Shown here: positions 1 to 9,739 of the stretch, one piece after another
How the letters are laid out: every line of letters starts with the position of its first letter
How positions within the stretch are numbered: position 1 is the first letter of the stretch
IMG/VR virus record: IMGVR_UViG_3300024341_000001
Reading direction: 5' to 3' (one strand)
DNA: 64,000 bases
From: a virus
Lineage: Duplodnaviria; Heunggongvirae; Uroviricota; Caudoviricetes
Notes under the pieces: generated by a model
Told to the model about the DNA's origin: nothing
Database searches by the model: none
What the model saw: only the letters and a program-made list of their open reading frames with translations
Program-made: the position numbers and the translations under genes

Positions 1-314
1 GCCCGGAACTCCCGATTATCTACACCACAGATAACAAAGTCGTAAGGATCGAACTCTTTTTTTGTATTTATATATTTTTTCTTAAATGCCATGCCATAAC
101 GCTTACCCAGTACTTCGGCTTTATTTTCCAATTGATCTTCAAATTGAAAATTTTGATAAGGTAAATTTTTCTTTTCTACCTCATCACCATCAAATACGGT
201 AAATTCCCAAAATAACGGTATTTGTTCTTTCGTGATCAAATCCGCTATTAGCTGTATAAGCCAAGAATTTATACCTCCGGCCCCAGCTATCATAACGTTT
301 ACACGCTTTGGCAT
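1..314 (-). CDS. ThiF/MoeB/E1-like adenylating enzyme (partial, runs off window)
   Basis: Not in ORF track. Manual translation MPKRVNVMIAGAGGINSWL...TVFDGDEVEKKNLPYQ...NKAEVL...DFVICGVDNREFR has the GxGG, D-x-D-x-V-E-x-x-N-L-x-x-Q and D-N motifs of ThiF. ATG at 312-314 abuts the upstream stop. Confidence 0.9.
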   Translation of the reverse strand, partial: MPKRVNVMIAGAGGINSWLIQLIADLITKEQIPLFWEFTVFDGDEVEKKNLPYQNFQFEDQLENKAEVLGKRYGMAFKKKYINTKKEFDPYDFVICGVDNREFR

Positions 315-524
315 TTAACCGCCTAATGTTGTATGAGTAAGTGTTATTATTTGTGCTTGCTGCAATTGTTCCAATGTTACTGTTTTTGCATTTACTTCCT
401 GTCCATCCAAAAACAGCCAACGATGGTTACGCTCTACTATTGTTTGTATATCTTTAAGAGCTTCTTCATCGTTCTTTTCACGGATATCCATACCCGTTGA
501 TGTTATAAGTTGATATTTTATCAT
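315..524 (-). CDS. Ubiquitin-like / ThiS-MoaD-like small protein ending in GG
   Basis: 69 aa, ends TTLGG-stop, has a WLFLDG segment, lies directly upstream of the ThiF gene. Confidence 0.7.
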   Translation of the reverse strand: MIKYQLITSTGMDIREKNDEEALKDIQTIVERNHRWLFLDGQEVNAKTVTLEQLQQAQIITLTHTTLGG

Positions 525-2464
525 TTAGTTTGTAAAGTTGTAATTTCATTAGCCAATCTAGAATCATTTGCTAACGCAAACATTCTATTAACTAATCGTG
601 CGATATTTGCATGCTCATTTTGTCCTTTGTCAACCATGCATAAATATTTCCCACTTGGATATTCAAAAACTCTTATTGTAGAAGTCTCTACAATATATTC
701 TCTTAATTTACCTTTAACAGTGTAACCACTGACGACCCGCCCGTTGTCTAGTAAAGCATCTTCCATTTTTTGACAGTTAAATAAAGCAATAGTCTGTGAA
801 AGCATTTCTTGTTCTTTAGTGCGTTCCTCAGCCCATACCTTACGCCCAGTCTCGATAATATATTTGATGTCGGATCCAGTAATTCCTACTATATCCGGAT
901 CTACTAATATATCAATTATTCGACTCATTGAGGTTACACCGATCAAATTGAGCAGCTTGTTGGAGTCTTTTACCACATATTTTGATTTGTCTCCAAATGA
1001 GATATAATTTCTATTTTTATCTCTTTCCAATCCAATTTTGAAGTCAACGGTTTCCCCAGTTATTTCGTCGAGTGCTTGTAATATTATACCGGCTGCTATC
1101 GCGCGATGATATCTTAGTGAACACTTACTAACGCTTTCCAGGTAGTTATCGTAGTCCTCATCTTTATTGTAACATAGCGCTCTCGGTAATACGTCGACAA
1201 GTTCGTCTTTATTTATGCGGTAGTCATTTATATAGTTGGTGACCATTGTGGTTCCGGCTGAATTTACCTTTTTACGAACTTCCAAAGTAACATTAATGTT
1301 CCCAATCTGCATTTTCACTCTGCCGGAATTTTGTGCTTCCGTAATTACTGTTTTGCAGAATGCAGTAAATATATTCTCAAAATTGAACGAATCATCCCGA
1401 AGATTGCGTATAAAGTTACCAAGGAGATATTTAACTTTCACATTATTACTTTTTATTATATGAGATTCATATTCAATAGAATGCGCTTTAAATGTTACGT
1501 CATTAAACGTGAACTCTCCACCAGTTTCTAATTCAGCTATCTTATCAGTGAGTTTCTTTTGTATTCCGGCTTGTGCCTTTTCTACTACCGCATCTTCTAT
1601 TTTCTTTCGTTCATCACGCTTTGCTATCATAGTTAGAGTGGAATTTTCAATTACAATATGTTCATGGCCACGTATATATTTATTTAATGCTTCTTCTTCG
1701 GGAAATTCAGGATCGGGGCCAATATAGAATACCTTAGGTTGGCCAGTCTTCTCATTCTCATTACTACAATACCTATCAGGGTCAGTCCAATTATATGAAG
1801 CATTATCCGGTTTTGTAATATAGAATTTTATGGAGTAACCAATCATAGTTGTTCTACAGCCATGATTTACTTCTGCATATAAAGCTATTCTGGTATCATC
1901 CATTAATTGTATAACGTCTACAATATAATGAATGTAGTCAGGCAATTTTTCATATTTATTAGGATCATTAAATAATGATGGTTTATATTGATCTAGTTTA
2001 TTACAAAGCCAATATAGAGTTTCTATTTTTATTTGTGTCAAAGCAAAGTTACTAAGAAATGACGGTAAGTCATTATCTAGAATGTGTTGTTTTAGATCGT
2101 CTAGGGTCGAAAACTCTTTTGCTTGTTGTTCTTTATTTCCAATGTCCCCGATAATATTAATATATTTTATATCTTCCTGCTTTGGTACGAATTTTAAATA
2201 ATATCGCGCATTGCGTAATTTAAATAATTTATATCCAAATTTTTTAGCAGTTGCGTCCGGTAGTTCAAGATATAAGGCATCATCATACCCGTTAAAACGT
2301 AATACCAAATCCTTATTATTTGGTCCGGAGTTATAAATATATGTAAGATTTGAGCCTTTAAACATTGTGAATAAAGCGTCAAATAAATCACGCTCTATTT
2401 CTGTTATATTAAGGCCATAAATGTCGTTATAAATCTGTAGGTTTTTTATTAATATTTTACTCAT
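521..2464 (-). CDS. Large hypothetical protein translationally coupled to the Ubl gene
   Basis: 647-aa ORF whose stop overlaps the Ubl start; no family recognised. Confidence 0.75.
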   Translation of the reverse strand: MSKILIKNLQIYNDIYGLNITEIERDLFDALFTMFKGSNLTYIYNSGPNNKDLVLRFNGYDDALYLELPDATAKKFGYKLFKLRNARYYLKFVPKQEDIKYINIIGDIGNKEQQAKEFSTLDDLKQHILDNDLPSFLSNFALTQIKIETLYWLCNKLDQYKPSLFNDPNKYEKLPDYIHYIVDVIQLMDDTRIALYAEVNHGCRTTMIGYSIKFYITKPDNASYNWTDPDRYCSNENEKTGQPKVFYIGPDPEFPEEEALNKYIRGHEHIVIENSTLTMIAKRDERKKIEDAVVEKAQAGIQKKLTDKIAELETGGEFTFNDVTFKAHSIEYESHIIKSNNVKVKYLLGNFIRNLRDDSFNFENIFTAFCKTVITEAQNSGRVKMQIGNINVTLEVRKKVNSAGTTMVTNYINDYRINKDELVDVLPRALCYNKDEDYDNYLESVSKCSLRYHRAIAAGIILQALDEITGETVDFKIGLERDKNRNYISFGDKSKYVVKDSNKLLNLIGVTSMSRIIDILVDPDIVGITGSDIKYIIETGRKVWAEERTKEQEMLSQTIALFNCQKMEDALLDNGRVVSGYTVKGKLREYIVETSTIRVFEYPSGKYLCMVDKGQNEHANIARLVNRMFALANDSRLANEITTLQTK

Positions 2465-2472
2465 AATGCTTG

Positions 2473-2563
2473 CGGAGAGTACAGGATTCGAACCTGTGGC
2501 CAGTCTTTCGACTGGCGACGGTTTAGCAAACCGTTAGTTTAAACCGGACTCACTCAACTCTCC
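2473..2563 (-). tRNA. tRNA-Ser(GCT)
   Basis: Cloverleaf, loop TTGCTAA, long variable arm, G73. Confidence 0.95.
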
Positions 2564-2992
2564 TTATTGATAATCCTTTGTTTGTATAATACCAAATTTA
2601 TGGAAATATCGCAATGGTCTCCATTTATGGCCATTAACATAAAATCCCCATTTATGATAAGGTCGTCCACATAGTAATAATGTCCATGCACCACCTTTTG
2701 GTATATCCAGATAATGCTTTTTTAACGCAGTAGATTTCCAAATTGAAAAGGCTTTTACATTGAAACTACCTTCTGGTGTGACATTAGTATAATGACCTTT
2801 TAATACTATCGATATGAAATTACATGCATGATCATGAAAGAATCTCCTGTCATCAGATTTCATCCAATGGTGTAATCGTACAGAATATCCAAATATTAAT
2901 AATGTCCATCTATGTAAATATGGACAGTCAGGATATCCTAATTTTTCTTTCCATCTTATTTGGAATAAACGAAATTTTCGGTAGGGTTTCAT
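2564..2992 (-). CDS. Cupin-like phage protein
   Basis: LHHWMKSDDRRFFHDH motif typical of phage cupin-fold proteins. Confidence 0.6.
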   Translation of the reverse strand: MKPYRKFRLFQIRWKEKLGYPDCPYLHRWTLLIFGYSVRLHHWMKSDDRRFFHDHACNFISIVLKGHYTNVTPEGSFNVKAFSIWKSTALKKHYLDIPKGGAWTLLLCGRPYHKWGFYVNGHKWRPLRYFHKFGIIQTKDYQ

Positions 2993-2993
2993 T

Positions 2994-3069
2994 GTCCACG
3001 GAACAGGACTCGAACCATGTAGTCTCTGACAGGTAATGCCAGTATCTTGCCAATTAAACGATCCGTGGA
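2994..3069 (-). tRNA. Atypical or degenerate tRNA, anticodon TAC
   Basis: Acceptor TCCACGGA/TCCGTGGA, anticodon stem CTGGC/GTCAG, loop ATTACCT (C37), bulged T-stem. Confidence 0.5.
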
Positions 3070-3177
3070 TACGACGTTTTTAACAGTCAAGCTGCAGGAA
3101 ACGTCGACAACCCGGAGGGATTACTCCCCGCCGCCACCTAGTTTTAATAAACTAGGAAACAACAAATTCTTATACCA

Positions 3178-3807: not shown

Positions 3808-3823
3808 ATGATTTCTCCTTTCG

Positions 3824-3905
3824 TAGAGGTAGAGGGACTTGAACCCTCAAGGCTTTCGCGGCAGATTATGATTCTGCTGGGATGCCCAGTTACCCACATA
3901 CCTCT
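3824..3905 (-). tRNA. Leu-type (long variable arm, A73) tRNA with CAT anticodon
   Basis: Stem GCAGA/TCTGC, loop ATCATAA; variable arm CGCGAAAGC identical to that of tRNA-Leu(CAA) at 29425. Confidence 0.75.
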
Positions 3906-4594: not shown

Positions 4595-5389
4595 TTAAAG
4601 TGTTTTAAATTGTTCTTTTATCATCTTCGCAAATGACGTGAATACTGGCGAAGATGATAAATCTGTTTGCCAGGCCAACCCATTTTCTACAAGATCATAA
4701 GTATGTTTAATATAAGCTCCTGGTATTGCTTTGTTGTTTTCATCACGATCGCGCCCCATTAACCACAGAATATCGGAGACTTTAATAGCTGCCCGATGAT
4801 CGTGTGTGATTACTATAATGGTATTTAATTCATGTAGGTTTGCGACTTCGGTTATTAATGTACAGATTTCATCTATCATTAAAGGATCAAGTCCAGAAAA
4901 GGGTTCATCCATCAATAAAAAATGTTCGCTACATAGTAATTGTTGTATGATGGCTATTCGTTGCCGCTGTCCTCCAGATAACTGTGATGGGTATAAATGT
5001 GTCTGTGCTTTTAAATCAAACCGCTCCAGAAATATACGTGCTTTTTCAGGAGTATCCTTTCTATTTCGCCCAGCCAACAGTAAATTGGAAATAACTGTGC
5101 GATGTGCGAAGAGAGGATAGTTCTGAGCTACGACGCCAACACTGCCGGGGGTTACTTCTATATTTTTCTCAGTGATACGAACTGTTCCTGTCGTGGGCTT
5201 CTGCAGACCAGATAGTATACGAAATAGTTGAGTTTTGCCTATTCCTGATGGGCCCAATAATCCTACAACTTGCCCATGTCCGACGTTATTTTTAATTTCG
5301 CCGTTTACATTTTTGAGAATCTGTCGATTGCCGTATGTTAAAGAAACGTTTTCTATACGAAGCAAAGTTTCTTTTGTTATCCGTTTCAT
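4595..5389 (-). CDS. ABC transporter ATP-binding protein (NitT/TauT type)
   Basis: GPSGIGKT, LSGGQRQR, LLMDEPF; start at 5389 overlaps the permease stop. Confidence 0.95.
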   Translation of the reverse strand: MKRITKETLLRIENVSLTYGNRQILKNVNGEIKNNVGHGQVVGLLGPSGIGKTQLFRILSGLQKPTTGTVRITEKNIEVTPGSVGVVAQNYPLFAHRTVISNLLLAGRNRKDTPEKARIFLERFDLKAQTHLYPSQLSGGQRQRIAIIQQLLCSEHFLLMDEPFSGLDPLMIDEICTLITEVANLHELNTIIVITHDHRAAIKVSDILWLMGRDRDENNKAIPGAYIKHTYDLVENGLAWQTDLSSSPVFTSFAKMIKEQFKTL

Positions 5390-6171
5390 GTTCTTTCCCT
5401 CGTAATAAATGCGTATGGACAAATAGTTTTATTTAGAGCACCGATAGCATAATCAATAAATAAACCTAATACAAAGATAGTTATTTGAATAGCAAAAATA
5501 TCTGCTAATTCAAAATGTTTGTTACTATCAAGTAAAAATTTACCTACACCGCCCTCGGATCTAGCAACTCCTTCAACCATAGTAAGCATCATCCATCCCA
5601 TAGCAAAGTTTTGTTGTAATACCTCGATTGCATCGCTAGCGCGCCCCAAAACAATGATTTCAAATACTGCGCGCCATTCGTTCATTTGTAATGTACGTGC
5701 ATAGTCGAACTCACTTTTTGGAATTGCTTCTATAACCGCCATCATTGAAGTGACGAAAAACACGGACATACCAAATACTTCCAACATCAATTTAAGTTGG
5801 TGCCCACCACTAGCGATTAACGTAAATAAAAATGTAAAACCAACTAGTCCTAAAAAACGACCTTTTGTCACAAACATTGCTATAGGTCTGAAAAAAGGCA
5901 TTACTGTTGCATATGTCAATCCTAATGAAACGATCAATGTAATACCTATCGCTTGCAAACATAAAATAAAACTTGTGATAAGTTCTTGCCCGAAACCATT
6001 GTACCATATCTTGCTAAAGCTAGCTAAAACTTCTAATGGTTTAGGAACCACGTATGAGGGCCAAATCCACCATACTGCAACAGCTATGGCAAGTTGAATT
6101 GCTGCCATAGAAGTCATAATTGATTTGGACATAACCTTGTTTGGTGAAAACATTTCCAATGTAAGGTTCAT
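5386..6171 (-). CDS. ABC transporter permease (NitT/TauT type)
   Basis: Multiple TM segments, PKPLEV and EFDYARTLQM EAA-like loop. Confidence 0.9.
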   Translation of the reverse strand: MNLTLEMFSPNKVMSKSIMTSMAAIQLAIAVAVWWIWPSYVVPKPLEVLASFSKIWYNGFGQELITSFILCLQAIGITLIVSLGLTYATVMPFFRPIAMFVTKGRFLGLVGFTFLFTLIASGGHQLKLMLEVFGMSVFFVTSMMAVIEAIPKSEFDYARTLQMNEWRAVFEIIVLGRASDAIEVLQQNFAMGWMMLTMVEGVARSEGGVGKFLLDSNKHFELADIFAIQITIFVLGLFIDYAIGALNKTICPYAFITRERT

Positions 6172-8031: not shown

Positions 8032-9071
8032 GATCGATTCTTTCGTAAATATTTGGATGTTGTGGTTGATTGTGATTTTGATTCTATTGGCACTTGTTGC
8101 GCCGAGGGTAATTCGTTTAACAAAGGAGCGAGTTCTTCATTACCGACAAGTAATGCTTTTGTGTCGCCTAGCAACAAACTATCTACTTTGCTTTCCCATA
8201 ATTCAAGTTCCTTTAATGTGTCTGCTTCAAAGGCCATATTAGCTAGATCAACACCCTCAATAAATGGAGTTGCAACTTCCATGAATTGATCGATTTCTCC
8301 AAGTTTCTGCCCATAATCATTGAGTAGATTTTCAACTGTTTGATCATATAGCTTTTTATCATCAGATGCATCGCGAATAAAGGACATTGCCGCAGTCATG
8401 GCTTTGTGACCAGTGGTTACTGCCGCGGTTTGTCGCTCGAGAGTATCTACATTTTGTTTGATGTCTTCATACATAAATTCAGAGACTTCTCGCATCTTGT
8501 TCAACATACGCATCAAACTCTCCAGCTTTGTGTAGAGCTGCTGTAACGTGATGTTTGATTCTTTCAACCTTCCAGCACTACGTGCATTTAATACTAATGC
8601 CGCTTTTTTACCAGAAGTTTTTGCCGCCTTTGCCATCGAAATAGACCGCTGACGATCTCTCTCGTTGGTGTCAATGGTGACTTTTAATTGCCCCATCTGA
8701 CCTCGGAGATTCTTTATTTGTTTTTCAATTAAGACAAGTTTATCAGCTAATTTATCTACATAATTTTTTAATATACCGATCGGATCAATAGTAATGAAAA
8801 TCCCAGTGACCCAACGCATAATAAGTTTAAATGAACCAAAAAATAAGGTCCAAAATCGCTTACTTGTTAAGATCGTACCTACAATAACTACAGTCATAAA
8901 AAGAAACGCTGCCGTTAATGTATTTTCTAACAAACCAATAATAAATGGTAATGCTAGATTTAGTCCGTATAAAGCTGCCGCCGCTAATGCTACTGCGACA
9001 ATCATACCAAATGTGCCCTCTTTGCGTTGCCAGAATGACTTCGCGAGACCATCAGATAATCCTGGTGTCAT
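8028..9071 (-). CDS. Membrane-anchored coiled-coil protein of the ABC/OmpA cluster
   Basis: N-terminal TM helices then long coiled coil; coupled to neighbours. Confidence 0.7.
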   Translation of the reverse strand: MTPGLSDGLAKSFWQRKEGTFGMIVAVALAAAALYGLNLALPFIIGLLENTLTAAFLFMTVVIVGTILTSKRFWTLFFGSFKLIMRWVTGIFITIDPIGILKNYVDKLADKLVLIEKQIKNLRGQMGQLKVTIDTNERDRQRSISMAKAAKTSGKKAALVLNARSAGRLKESNITLQQLYTKLESLMRMLNKMREVSEFMYEDIKQNVDTLERQTAAVTTGHKAMTAAMSFIRDASDDKKLYDQTVENLLNDYGQKLGEIDQFMEVATPFIEGVDLANMAFEADTLKELELWESKVDSLLLGDTKALLVGNEELAPLLNELPSAQQVPIESKSQSTTTSKYLRKNRS

Positions 9072-9739
9072 TAACGTGCCTTTCTCTTTTGCGTTGAAGT
9101 TGTTTGTGTTGCTAGATATGTTTTTATTTTTGTTTCTTGCTCTCTAATTGCAGTACGTACCGAATCGAGCGTAGCAGTAAATACATCTTTTTGCGCAGAC
9201 AATTGTTGCTCCTCTTGTGCGGCACCAACCAATAAATCATTAGCTTGTACTTTTAGCTTCTCGATTTGATCATTTAATTCTGCAATGGTATCATCGATCT
9301 TTGCCGCTTGATGTCTTTTTGTATCAATACCTTTTTGCGATTCGGACAATTCAGCATCAAATTGCTCCGATGCCGCATCTACAGCACTGAATTTTGCGGT
9401 AATAGCATTTAATAAAATTTCTACACTTGCTTTTCCTTGTTTTTGCAAAGCAATAAAAGCAGATTTAAATCTAGCAGACTCATCGGCAATAGCTTCCGAT
9501 AATGACTCGACAAGACCATAAAAATCCGACAGGACTGATGGCGTTGCTTTATCAACATCTGCAACTATTTGTTGCAGAATTTCTTCATCAACTGTCTGAC
9601 GTCCAGGCTTAATACTTTTTTGTGCGGGCGTTGCCATTTTTTCGGGCGTGGCCAGCTGCTCATCAGCAGAAGGGGTTTCTTGCCCAGAATCTGGAGCAAA
9701 ATTCCAGAACGGGGATAGCGCCTTCTTTAGTACATTCAT
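9071..9739 (-). CDS. Coiled-coil hypothetical protein, first gene of the ABC/OmpA operon
   Basis: 222 aa with AGGAG SD upstream. Confidence 0.7.
   Translation of the reverse strand: MNVLKKALSPFWNFAPDSGQETPSADEQLATPEKMATPAQKSIKPGRQTVDEEILQQIVADVDKATPSVLSDFYGLVESLSEAIADESARFKSAFIALQKQGKASVEILLNAITAKFSAVDAASEQFDAELSESQKGIDTKRHQAAKIDDTIAELNDQIEKLKVQANDLLVGAAQEEQQLSAQKDVFTATLDSVRTAIREQETKIKTYLATQTTSTQKRKAR

What the first reader, a model, noticed from the sequence alone, without database searches (positions are those of the whole stretch)
1..2464. Phage ubiquitin-like operon: large protein, GG-ending Ubl, ThiF/E1
Seen: three translationally coupled genes; the E1-like gene is absent from the ORF track because it runs off the edge. 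Known: Ubl plus E1 (plus E2 and JAB) cassettes act in bacterial protein conjugation, including anti-phage Bil/Bub-type systems, while ThiS/ThiF pairs carry sulfur. Inferred: a phage-borne conjugation or counter-defence system, or a sulfur relay for tRNA or DNA thiolation. The 647-aa partner has a C-terminal YLCMVD Cys that could be an acceptor or E2-like site (unverified).
Basis: partly seen in the sequence, partly recalled or inferred. Interest (0 to 1): 0.8.

Follow-up and report, generated by a model that had tools for sequence, protein, structure and literature searches.

The report
Phage ubiquitin-like tagging module
A 215-kb lake-water jumbo phage carries a tightly coupled three-gene set (a large protein ending in an E2-like domain with an invariant cysteine, a 69-residue ubiquitin-like protein ending in Gly-Gly, and a miniature 201-residue E1 activating enzyme) that is conserved as a block in hundreds of uncultured phage relatives and most likely is the phage's own protein-tagging system, something so far studied only as a bacterial anti-phage defence.

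Summary
On the minus strand lie a 647-aa gene (521-2464), a 69-aa gene ending in GG (315-524) that overlaps it by ATGA, and a ThiF/E1 gene starting right after the TAA. The E1 runs off the window and is 201 aa in the full genome.

- **Small protein:** it folds as a beta-grasp. GG is invariant in 22 homologues.
- **E1:** it passes Pfam ThiF. It keeps the nucleotide-binding residues and an invariant Cys (SCQ) in 120 of 120 relatives.
- **647-aa protein:** it has no named family. It belongs to a family of at least 499 clusters. The high-confidence model ends in a domain (549-647) whose only weak structural matches are UBC, UEV and RWD (E2-type) chains. This domain carries Cys609, invariant in 91 of 91.
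- **Gene neighbourhood:** all 13 independent loci examined keep the trio; 7 add a JAB peptidase.
- **Genome content:** no sulfur-transfer enzyme was found in the genome.

Best reading is a compact phage Ubl conjugation pathway (E1, E2-like large protein, optional JAB); targets are unknown. A sulfur relay is not excluded.

The scan has noted other phage Ubl cassettes on other genomes. I found no paper describing it.

The parts
521..2464 (-). Gene X: 647-aa protein of no named family, a multi-domain alpha/beta protein. It is the conserved partner of the Ubl and the E1.
   Evidence: ORF. No Pfam, PHROG, PADLOC or NCBIfam hit over threshold. Family of 499 50%-identity clusters at E<=1e-3, of which 171 at E<=1e-30. 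AF2 model has pLDDT 91.3 and pTM 0.76.
524..820 (-). C-terminal domain of X (aa 549-647). It has a UBC/UEV/RWD-like (E2-type) fold and is related to Pfam DUF7737. It contains the motif YPxGxY-C609-xVDK.
638..640 (-). Codon of Cys609, the proposed catalytic (thioester-accepting) cysteine of X.
   Evidence: Invariant in 91 of 91 members, while C431, C448 and H453 vary. In the model it lies between strand 599-602 and helix 620-632. Codon verified.
1706..1939 (-). Small beta-barrel (OB-like) domain of X, aa 176-253. It is a candidate substrate- or nucleic-acid-binding module.
315..524 (-). Ubl: 69-aa beta-grasp protein ending in Gly-Gly (GG codons 318-323, stop 315-317).
   Evidence: ORF. AF2 pLDDT 83.9 with strand-strand-helix-strand-strand-short helix-strand order. 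The Foldseek top 50 in PDB and top 30 in Swiss-Prot models are all ubiquitin, SUMO, NEDD8 or FUBI (probability 0.90-0.99 for 49 of the 50 PDB rows, one at 0.57; TM about 0.5; E 7e-3 and weaker). GG is invariant in 22 of 22.
1..314 (-). First 104 codons of the miniature E1 (ThiF-type adenylyltransferase). The full gene is 201 aa and continues beyond the window to G000:C1:149762.
   Evidence: Pfam ThiF 4.8e-10, 39.4 bits against a cut-off of 28.1 for the full protein. GxGG, D42, N50, Q54, K65, D99, R104 and Cys158 are invariant in 120 of 120 family members.
2472..2563 (-). tRNA-Ser(GCT) gene ending 7 nt before the ATG of X. It is probably co-transcribed with the cassette.
   Evidence: ARAGORN, Rfam tRNA 54 bits, sequence. 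The same tRNA precedes X in L003, L005 and L006.
3168..3176 (-). Exact GGTATAAGA box. It is the candidate promoter of the unit tRNA-Val, ORF142, tRNA-Ser, X, Ubl, E1.
   Evidence: Exact match at L002:2296-2304 on the gene strand. Its reading as a promoter comes only from earlier scan note e1-1608342 and was not tested here.

Best explanation
The three genes form a phage-encoded, compact ubiquitin-like protein-conjugation pathway.

Proposed mechanism:
1. The 201-aa E1 (probably a homodimer like other minimal E1s; inferred) binds ATP and adenylates the C-terminal Gly69 of the 69-aa beta-grasp Ubl.
2. The E1's invariant Cys158 takes the Ubl as a thioester (inferred).
3. The Ubl passes to the invariant Cys609 in the E2-like C-terminal domain of the 647-aa protein X (inferred).
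4. The large N-terminal part of X (about 540 residues, including an OB-like barrel) acts as a built-in substrate receptor, so no separate E3 is needed. The same is proposed for the Bil E2s.
5. The Ubl is finally attached to a still unknown phage or host protein.

In about half of the related phages a JAB metallopeptidase between the Ubl and E1 genes trims a C-terminal extension after GG, removes the tag, or both. This phage's clade has lost JAB and encodes the Ubl already ending in GG.

The module is a vertically inherited core block of a large lineage of uncultured jumbo phages and sits beside their sigma factor and DNA polymerase genes. That placement suggests a role in the phage's own infection programme.

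Shown here: the gene structure, the folds, the conserved residues and the conserved gene neighbourhood. Inferred: every chemical step and the existence of conjugates.
For: - Gene structure and coupling.
- Ubl: the AF2 model (pLDDT 83.9) has beta-grasp topology. Foldseek's top 50 PDB hits and top 30 Swiss-Prot-model hits are all ubiquitin, SUMO, NEDD8 or FUBI, aligned end to end with the GG tail. Nearly all VIA-align rows are beta-grasp proteins.
- GG end: GG is invariant in 22 of 22 homologues. Eleven of these end at GG and 11 carry 8-15 extra residues.
- E1: it passes Pfam ThiF. The adenylation residues and Cys158 are invariant in 120 of 120.
- X topology: a long helix, four strands, a loop with Cys609, then a helix. 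This is the E2 order of elements.
- X cysteine: Cys609 is invariant in 91 of 91. The other conserved Cys and His residues are replaced in 12 members, so Cys609 is not simply a zinc ligand.
- Neighbourhood: X, Ubl and E1 co-occur in 13 of 13 independent loci, and no other gene is universal. JAB is present in 7 of 13, including three loci where the Ubl already ends in GG, which fits a deconjugase.
- The own genome has no PP-loop thiolase, rhodanese or cysteine desulfurase.
- Complex prediction of X with the Ubl gave 'weak support'. The score was 0.48 in the median of three runs (0.45-0.49); the best of 3 controls was 0.00. The runs share at least 87% of contacts and the partner pLDDT is at least 81. 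The mark was reached by 58 of 80 solved complexes and 2 of 110 mismatched pairs. At 0.60 or under, however, only 7 of those 80 solved complexes passed, and so did both mismatches that passed. No interface was given.
Against: - No E2 family is hit by sequence. Pfam and NCBIfam gave no E2 hit. Only the uncharacterised DUF7737 is hit, and below its cut-off.
- The HPN motif of classical E2s is absent; the motif here is YPxGxY.
- The E1 has no ubiquitin-fold domain for recruiting an E2.
- RWD and UEV domains with the same fold are non-catalytic.
- E2-less Ubl systems exist, and GG-Ubl plus E1 plus JAB sets also serve in sulfur transfer, so JAB does not discriminate.
- No target is known.
- Nothing shows that the genes are expressed or that conjugates form.
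Confidence: 0.55

Rival explanations
1. Sulfur relay. The E1 adenylates the Ubl, and a host persulfide converts it to a C-terminal thiocarboxylate. X is a novel sulfur-inserting enzyme that uses its conserved cysteines, for example to thiolate the phage's many tRNAs or its DNA. In relatives JAB only matures the carrier.
For: - A GG-ended beta-grasp protein with a minimal single-domain E1 and an optional JAB is also the layout of the ThiS, MoaD, CysO and TtuB systems (established knowledge).
- Review abstracts listed (PMC12954526, PMC11323500) stress that Urm1 and archaeal Ubls do both jobs.
- tRNA genes lie directly upstream of X in this clade.
Against: - The genome has no rhodanese, cysteine desulfurase or PP-loop ATPase.
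- X has no PP-loop or Fe-S-type motif. Two of its three conserved cysteines are dispensable in some members.
- The C-terminal domain of X looks like an E2 or RWD domain, not like any known sulfurtransferase.
- The tRNA neighbourhood is absent in the more distant loci (L011, L012, L014, L018).
- Foldseek ranks only ubiquitin-type modifiers at the top, not ThiS or MoaD.
Confidence: 0.17
2. X is the target or a non-catalytic partner, not an enzyme. The E1 activates the Ubl and conjugates it directly (E2-less, as in the archaeal SAMP/UbaA system) to X or to other proteins. Alternatively X only binds the Ubl through an RWD/UEV-type ubiquitin-binding domain.
For: - UEV and RWD domains, the best-scoring matches of residues 549-647, are non-catalytic binders.
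- The X-Ubl complex prediction gave weak support for binding: score 0.48, best of 3 controls 0.00. The mark was reached by 58 of 80 solved complexes and 2 of 110 mismatched pairs, but at 0.60 or under by only 7 of those 80 and by both mismatches that passed. The runs share at least 87% of contacts and the partner pLDDT is at least 81.
- The E1 has no recognisable E2-recruiting domain.
- E2-less conjugation is established for SAMPs (own knowledge).
Against: A cysteine that is invariant in 91 of 91 very divergent members, at the E2 catalytic position, is hard to explain for a pure binding domain, especially when neighbouring conserved Cys and His residues are free to vary. A mere target would not be expected to stay linked to the Ubl and E1 genes in 13 of 13 loci at 22-26% identity.
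Confidence: 0.18
3. Peptide-modification (RiPP-like) system. As with the ThiF-type enzymes MccB and PaaA, the E1 modifies the C-terminus of the small protein to make a bioactive product, and X acts as a tailoring or export protein.
For: MccB and PaaA appear among the weakest PDB sequence matches of the E1 profile (E 0.3-0.9).
Against: - The small protein is a well-folded 69-residue beta-grasp, not a short precursor peptide.
- The E1 lacks the N-terminal peptide-clamp domain, being only 201 aa.
- The MccB and PaaA matches are not significant.
Confidence: 0.03

Closest known systems
Bil (bacterial ISG15-like) systems BilA-BilD, as summarised in PMC11601596 (section read)
   Same: Both have a Ubl with a free C-terminal Gly, an E1 with a catalytic cysteine, an E2-type cysteine carrier proposed to recognise targets itself without an E3, and a JAB peptidase (here only in relatives). 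All are encoded in one operon.
   Different: Bil is a bacterial anti-phage defence, whereas this is a syntenic core module of a phage lineage. [quoted passage not shown] BilB is a stand-alone E2; here the E2-like domain is the last 100 residues of a 647-aa protein. No PADLOC model matched significantly.
Bub (6E/DUF6527) systems and CBASS Cap2/Cap3 (PMC11601596, PMC10097602)
   Different: Bub works through oxyester intermediates and its E1 lacks a catalytic Cys. Here both the E1 and the E2-like domain keep an invariant Cys. Cap2 conjugates the CD-NTase itself rather than a beta-grasp Ubl. There is no DUF6527 or CD-NTase gene here.
E2-less dual-function Ubl systems: archaeal SAMP/UbaA/HvJAMM1, Thermus TtuB/TtuC, eukaryotic Urm1/Uba4
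   Same: Both combine a small GG-ended beta-grasp protein, a single E1-like enzyme and a JAMM/JAB peptidase. The relatives' JAB scores best against the Haloferax desampylase model (2.8e-13, below the model's cut-off).
   Different: Those E1s carry or cooperate with rhodanese domains and feed sulfur to tRNA or molybdopterin. No sulfur-transfer partner exists in this genome. A conserved 650-800-aa partner with an E2-like domain has no counterpart there.
PRTRC (ParB-related, ThiF-related cassette) of plasmids and ICEs, TIGR03736
   Same: It is the best-scoring NCBIfam model for the E1 (6.3e-12) and lies on mobile genetic elements. A Bacillus jumbo phage ThiF distantly similar to this E1 sits next to a PRTRC_A-like gene.
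   Different: The score of 45 bits is far below the 144.75-bit cut-off. There are no ParB or PRTRC A-F proteins here. PRTRC itself has no known function.
DUF4132/DUF7737 proteins of bacteria (for example those annotated MolR/YehI-like)
   Same: The C-terminal domain of X is sequence-related (sub-threshold) and structure-related to DUF7737. The whole model is faintly similar to DUF4132+DUF7737 proteins in the ESM Atlas (TM 0.28 by the query, 0.23 by the match).
   Different: Those proteins are uncharacterised. I found no paper linking them to a Ubl or an E1. Similarity outside the last 100 residues is not significant.

Membership tests
Ubiquitin-like (beta-grasp) modifier or carrier proteins | Beta-grasp fold (strand-strand-helix-strand-strand-short helix-strand) | tested here: met
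Ubiquitin-like (beta-grasp) modifier or carrier proteins | Flexible C-terminal tail ending in Gly-Gly, conserved and exposed or exposable by a peptidase | tested here: met
   GG is invariant in 22 of 22 homologues. Eleven end at GG and 11 have 8-15-residue tails. The loci whose Ubl carries a tail of 10-13 residues all encode JAB.
Ubiquitin-like (beta-grasp) modifier or carrier proteins | Covalent attachment to target lysines (as opposed to thiocarboxylate formation) | not testable with these tools
   Needs biochemistry or proteomics.
E1-like adenylyltransferases (ThiF/MoeB/E1 superfamily, PF00899) | Match to the family model above the curated cut-off | tested here: met
   39.4 bits against a cut-off of 28.1, E 4.8e-10, covering profile positions 20-208 of 238.
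E1-like adenylyltransferases (ThiF/MoeB/E1 superfamily, PF00899) | Gly-rich nucleotide loop and the acidic and basic residues needed for adenylation | tested here: met
   G11, G13, G14, D42, N50, Q54, K65, D99 and R104 are invariant in 120 of 120. Their assignment to ATP and Mg binding is by analogy with MoeB and ThiF (own knowledge).
E1-like adenylyltransferases (ThiF/MoeB/E1 superfamily, PF00899) | Catalytic cysteine in or near the crossover loop | tested here: inconclusive
   Cys158 (SCQ) is invariant in 120 of 120, just upstream of the conserved AGIxQLGN helix. Its equivalence to the ThiF, MoeB or UBA5 cysteine was not checked on a structure.
PRTRC-system ThiF (TIGR03736) | Score above the model's cut-off, and the accompanying ParB and PRTRC A-F genes | tested here: not met
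   45.3 bits against a cut-off of 144.75. The neighbours are SLT, a sigma factor and PolA.
E2 (UBC-fold) conjugating enzymes | UBC/RWD-type alpha/beta fold | tested here: inconclusive
E2 (UBC-fold) conjugating enzymes | Conserved catalytic cysteine in the loop between the fourth strand and the following helix | tested here: met
   Cys609 is invariant in 91 of 91 and lies between strand 599-602 and helix 620-632 of the model. Catalysis itself is untested.
E2 (UBC-fold) conjugating enzymes | HPN motif upstream of the cysteine, and a sequence match to UQ_con or Prok-E2 families | tested here: not met
   The motif is YPxGxY-C (P603 in 66 of 91, G605 in 60 of 91, Y607 in 81 of 91). There is no Pfam or NCBIfam E2 hit for X or its C-terminal domain. 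There is no Prok-E2_A or Prok-E2_B match anywhere in the genome.
Bil (BilABCD) systems | Four separate genes: Ubl, stand-alone E2, JAB, and an E1 with IAD-AAD-CYS architecture | tested here: not met
   The E1 is a single 201-aa domain. The E2-like domain is fused into a 647-aa protein. JAB is absent from this genome. Definition taken from PMC11601596.
Sulfur-carrier systems (ThiS/ThiF, MoaD/MoeB, CysO/MoeZ/Mec, TtuB/TtuC/TtuA) | A sulfur donor or acceptor enzyme in the system (rhodanese, cysteine desulfurase, ThiG, MoaE, or PP-loop TtuA) | tested here: not met
   There is no PF00581, PF00266 or PF01171 match in the 215-kb genome, and X has no such domain. Host enzymes could substitute, so the mechanism is not excluded.
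DUF7737 (PF24879) | Match above the gathering score | tested here: inconclusive
   21.2 bits for the isolated domain of this protein against a cut-off of 27. Eighteen of 41 family members match at E<=1, best 2.5e-7. A Foldseek match to an AFDB DUF7737 protein has probability 1.0 and 26% identity.

The most novel reading that the evidence does not exclude
X founds a new class of E2: a single polypeptide that joins a diverged UBC/RWD-type catalytic domain to its own substrate-recognition domains. With a 200-residue E1 and a 69-residue Ubl it would form the smallest complete ubiquitination-type cascade known. A whole lineage of jumbo phages would encode it and use it during infection to tag host or phage proteins. 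That would be the viral counterpart of the bacterial Bil, Bub and CBASS conjugation systems.
Probability: 0.4. Interest if true: 0.85.

Novelty: new variant of a known kind. Interest (0 to 1): 0.68.

Why it matters
Ubiquitin-like conjugation in the bacterial world has so far been characterised as a host weapon against phages (Bil, Bub, CBASS Cap2/Cap3). A conserved, vertically inherited Ubl, E1 and E2-like module on the phage side would show that viruses of bacteria also run their own protein-tagging chemistry.

It would offer a very small three-protein system for studying how E1-to-E2 transfer works without a ubiquitin-fold recruitment domain or an E3. It would also give a first functional handle on two sets of proteins of unknown function. 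One is the X family, with at least 499 clusters. The other is the bacterial DUF7737/DUF4132 group, whose C-terminal domain appears to be of the same kind.

Finding the targets could reveal a new layer of phage takeover or assembly control.

Tried and rejected
- **Family searches:** PHROGs, PADLOC and NCBIfam gave nothing significant for X or the Ubl. The weak PADLOC PD-Lambda-5_A hit to the C-terminal domain (E 1.8e-4, 3 of 41 members) was not pursued.
- **Sequence searches with X:** tblastn against 50,697 GenBank phage records gave no match. A single-protein scan of IMG/VR gave none. The alignment scan gave 4 loci.
- **Structure searches with X:** Foldseek against the PDB gave no match with E<=0.001; the top rows (Mediator and others) have probability 0.23 or less. 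The ESM Atlas look-up was uninformative because the Atlas's own model is poor (pLDDT 0.42).
- **PDB sequence search with the C-terminal-domain profile:** only a non-significant ORF13-like hit (E 0.15).
- **Zinc-site idea:** I considered that C431, C448, H453 and C609 form a Cys3His zinc site, which would make C609 structural. I rejected it because 12 of 91 members replace one or more of the first three with non-ligand residues while C609 never changes.
- **Functional link to tRNA genes:** the tRNAs occur only in the near clade, so I do not treat them as part of the system.
- **Upstream 142-aa gene ('cysteine dioxygenase' PHROG) and upstream 89-98-aa ORFs of some relatives as extra components:** neither is conserved across loci.
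- **Genome-collection scan:** it returned one 9.9-kb contig binned as a Methanomassiliicoccaceae MAG, which gives no reliable host clue.
- **PDB entries 9egb, 9egc and 9egd** (best E1 sequence match, E 3e-5): no paper in the library names them.
- **Relatives of the virus record** could not be drawn with the genome search.
Full report
**Observation**

The window is the reverse strand of G000:C1:85471-149470 in a 215,016-bp virus record. Its minus strand carries three genes:
- a 647-aa ORF at 521-2464, here called X;
- a 69-aa ORF at 315-524 ending in TLGG;
- an ORF that starts at 314 and runs off the window.

The stop of X overlaps the start of the small gene (ATGA). The small gene's TAA abuts the next ATG. 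I fetched the genome beyond the edge (L002). There the third gene is complete at 201 aa and passes Pfam ThiF at 39.4 bits against a cut-off of 28.1.

Downstream lie an SLT transglycosylase, a sigma-70 factor, a split family-A DNA polymerase and a MazZ-like domain protein. A tail-sheath block follows on the other strand. So no JAB, E2 or sulfurtransferase lies to the left of the window. A whole-genome search finds no JAB and only this one ThiF gene.

**The small protein is a ubiquitin-like beta-grasp**

A profile search found 22 homologues. GG is the only invariant motif apart from one alanine. Eleven proteins end at GG and eleven continue for 8-15 residues.

The AF2 model built with this alignment has pLDDT 83.9 and strand-strand-helix-strand-strand-short helix-strand order. 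Foldseek's best 50 PDB chains and best 30 Swiss-Prot models are all ubiquitin, SUMO, NEDD8 or FUBI, aligned from residue 2 to the GG end. Probability is 0.90-0.99 for 49 of the 50 PDB rows, TM is about 0.5, and E is 7e-3 and weaker.

**The E1 is a miniature but complete adenylating enzyme**

Its nearest curated model is PRTRC-type ThiF, far below that model's cut-off. The nearest solved chain is an uncharacterised 264-aa ThiF-type protein (9egb/9egc, E 3e-5).

The family is large: 414 clusters at 90% identity, nearly all of 190-202 aa. In 120 aligned members the glycine loop, D42, N50, Q54, K65, D99, R104 and a cysteine in the motif SCQ (Cys158) are invariant. Bub E1s lack a crossover-loop cysteine and use oxyester chemistry (PMC11601596). 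This E1 keeps a cysteine.

**The 647-aa protein**

X has no Pfam, PHROG, PADLOC or NCBIfam family and no tblastn match in GenBank phages. A profile search over 1.84 billion representatives found 499 clusters at E<=1e-3, of which 171 at E<=1e-30. Most of those listed are 600-800 aa long.

With 91 diverse members the AF2 model is confident (pLDDT 91.3, pTM 0.76). Results of the structure searches:
- Foldseek finds no solved relative.
- In AlphaFold DB it finds uncharacterised family members and, for residues 548-644, a DUF7737 protein at probability 1.0.
- Eighteen of 41 isolated C-terminal domains hit Pfam DUF7737, best E 2.5e-7. This protein's own domain scores 21.2 bits against a cut-off of 27.
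- In the Foldseek-independent VIA-align search, two regions collect the rows.

Those two regions are:
1. Residues 176-253 match OB-type barrels.

The secondary structure fits an E2: a long helix (530-562), four strands (565-602), a loop, then a helix (620-632). In that loop sits Cys609 within YPxGxY-C-xVDK.

Cys609 is invariant in 91 of 91 sequences. C431, C448 and H453, the other conserved Cys and His residues, are replaced by non-ligand residues in 12 members, and one member lacks all three. A shared zinc site therefore does not explain Cys609. A catalytic role does.

The classical HPN motif is absent and no E2 family is hit by sequence. I file the domain as E2-like, not as a member of a known E2 family.

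**Gene neighbourhood**

I examined loci reached from X homologues and independently from E1 homologues.

X, the Ubl and the E1 co-occur in 13 of 13 independent loci. This includes an 850-aa X that matches the family profile only at E 3.5e-37 (L018). No other gene is universal. A Prok-JAB gene is present in 7 of 13, usually between the Ubl and the E1.

How the JAB relates to the Ubl end:
- Ubls with tails of 10-13 residues after GG occur only with JAB (L004, L015, L016/L017).
- One JAB locus has a one-residue tail (L014).
- Three JAB loci have Ubls that already end in GG (L012, L020, L021).

The last case suggests that JAB also removes the tag rather than only maturing it.

The surrounding order (RNR or HNH, X, Ubl, JAB if present, E1, SLT, sigma factor, PolA, then the tail sheath on the other strand) is kept across the lineage. 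The module thus looks like inherited core equipment rather than a mobile accessory island.

An earlier scan note places this genome in the multisubunit-RNAP-encoding jumbo phage lineage (e1-1600050). I did not test that.

**Transcription context**

A tRNA-Ser(GCT) gene ends 7 nt before the ATG of X. The same tRNA precedes X in L003, L005 and L006.

An exact GGTATAAGA box lies about 700 nt upstream of X, just after the HNH gene. A 13-bp hairpin follows the E1 gene, outside the window. This fits one transcription unit: tRNA-Val, ORF142, tRNA-Ser, X, Ubl, E1. It is only a lead.

**Conjugation versus sulfur transfer**

For conjugation:
- The large partner has an E2-like domain with an invariant Cys, and the E1 has an invariant Cys.
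- JAB accompanies Ubls that are already mature.
- Only ubiquitin-type modifiers rank at the top in Foldseek.
- The genome has no rhodanese, cysteine desulfurase or PP-loop enzyme.

A complex prediction of full-length X with the Ubl gave 'weak support'. The score was 0.48 (runs 0.45-0.49) and the best of three controls was 0.00. The runs share at least 87% of contacts and the partner pLDDT is at least 81. The mark was reached by 58 of 80 solved complexes and 2 of 110 mismatched pairs. At 0.60 or under, only 7 of those 80 solved complexes passed, and so did both mismatches that passed. No interface was reported.

For sulfur transfer:
- The layout of GG-Ubl, minimal E1 and JAB is shared with the CysO, TtuB and SAMP systems, and the Ubl subtype is unresolved.
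- Host enzymes could supply sulfur.
- tRNA genes are adjacent in the near clade, although not in the distant loci.

My odds are 0.55 for an E1-to-E2-like conjugation pathway, 0.18 for X as a non-catalytic partner or target of an E2-less system, 0.17 for a sulfur relay and 0.03 for RiPP-like chemistry.

**Comparison and novelty**

The module works like Bil, Bub or Cap2 conjugation systems but is a member of none:
- The E1 is a single 201-aa domain.
- The E2-like domain is fused to about 540 residues of unknown domains.
- No PADLOC model fits.
- The carrier is a phage.

Literature searches found no description of this family or of DUF7737 or DUF4132 function. The scan itself has repeatedly noted other phage-borne Ubl, E1 and JAB cassettes on other genomes.

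I rate it a new variant of a known kind. It is of clear interest to those working on prokaryotic ubiquitin-like systems. All the chemistry is still inferred.

Noticed in passing
window 2472-2563 (-), 2994-3068 (-), 3823-3905 (-): Three dispersed tRNA genes lie among the protein genes just upstream of the cassette: Ser-GCT, Val-TAC and Met-CAT. tRNA-Ser ends only 7 nt before the start codon of the 647-aa gene, so tRNA processing may create the 5' end of that mRNA.
   Followed up: partly
L005:6001-6092, and the N-termini of P0005 and P0006: The long odd N-terminal extensions of two database homologues of X come from gene calls that start inside, or read through, the upstream tRNA-Ser gene. Their true starts are further downstream.
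   Followed up: partly
L004:4492-4898, L015:4768-5157, L016:6286-6671: In the JAB-bearing relatives ARAGORN calls a phage-encoded tmRNA gene, with tag peptides ending in ...AA or ...LA, about 0.3-1.1 kb upstream of X. A protein-tagging RNA thus lies next to a protein-tagging Ubl module.
   Followed up: no
L003:30-103: A relative carries a tRNA with anticodon CTA (called tRNA-Pyl by ARAGORN). This is an amber-suppressor-type tRNA, which hints at stop-codon reassignment or suppression in that phage.
   Followed up: no
L002:7366-8382 and 8635-9435 (outside the window, G000:C1:151365-153434): The family-A DNA polymerase is split into two ORFs (338 and 266 aa) separated by about 250 nt, whereas several relatives have one 600-aa gene. 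L005 and L021 are split at a similar place with an inserted ORF. Rfam found no intron family in the gap at gathering threshold.
   Followed up: partly
L002:9701-10078 (outside the window): A 125-aa protein has the MazZ/DatZ-type dATP/dGTP diphosphohydrolase N-terminal domain (PF18909, E 9e-19). The genome has no PurZ or adenylosuccinate-synthetase homologue, so a Z-base genome is unlikely.
   Followed up: partly
window 4595-6171 (-), with further genes upstream in relatives: The phage encodes an ABC-transporter ATPase (275 aa) and a membrane permease-like protein (261 aa). In relatives the same genes follow an OmpA-domain protein of about 600 aa. This conserved transporter-like set is unusual for a phage.
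   Followed up: no
window 2564-2992 (-): A 142-aa protein matches PHROG 4786 ('cysteine dioxygenase', E 8e-26) but no Pfam family. It lies between tRNA-Val and tRNA-Ser and is not conserved next to X in relatives.
   Followed up: partly
L008 (Bacillus phage vB_BauM_KLEB27-3) and L009 (Salmonella phage Arash): Distantly similar ThiF-type genes exist in cultured jumbo phages. In the Bacillus phage the gene sits next to a PRTRC_A-like gene. In phage Arash the ThiF-like protein and neighbours are annotated as 'structural protein'. Neither locus has an X homologue.
   Followed up: partly
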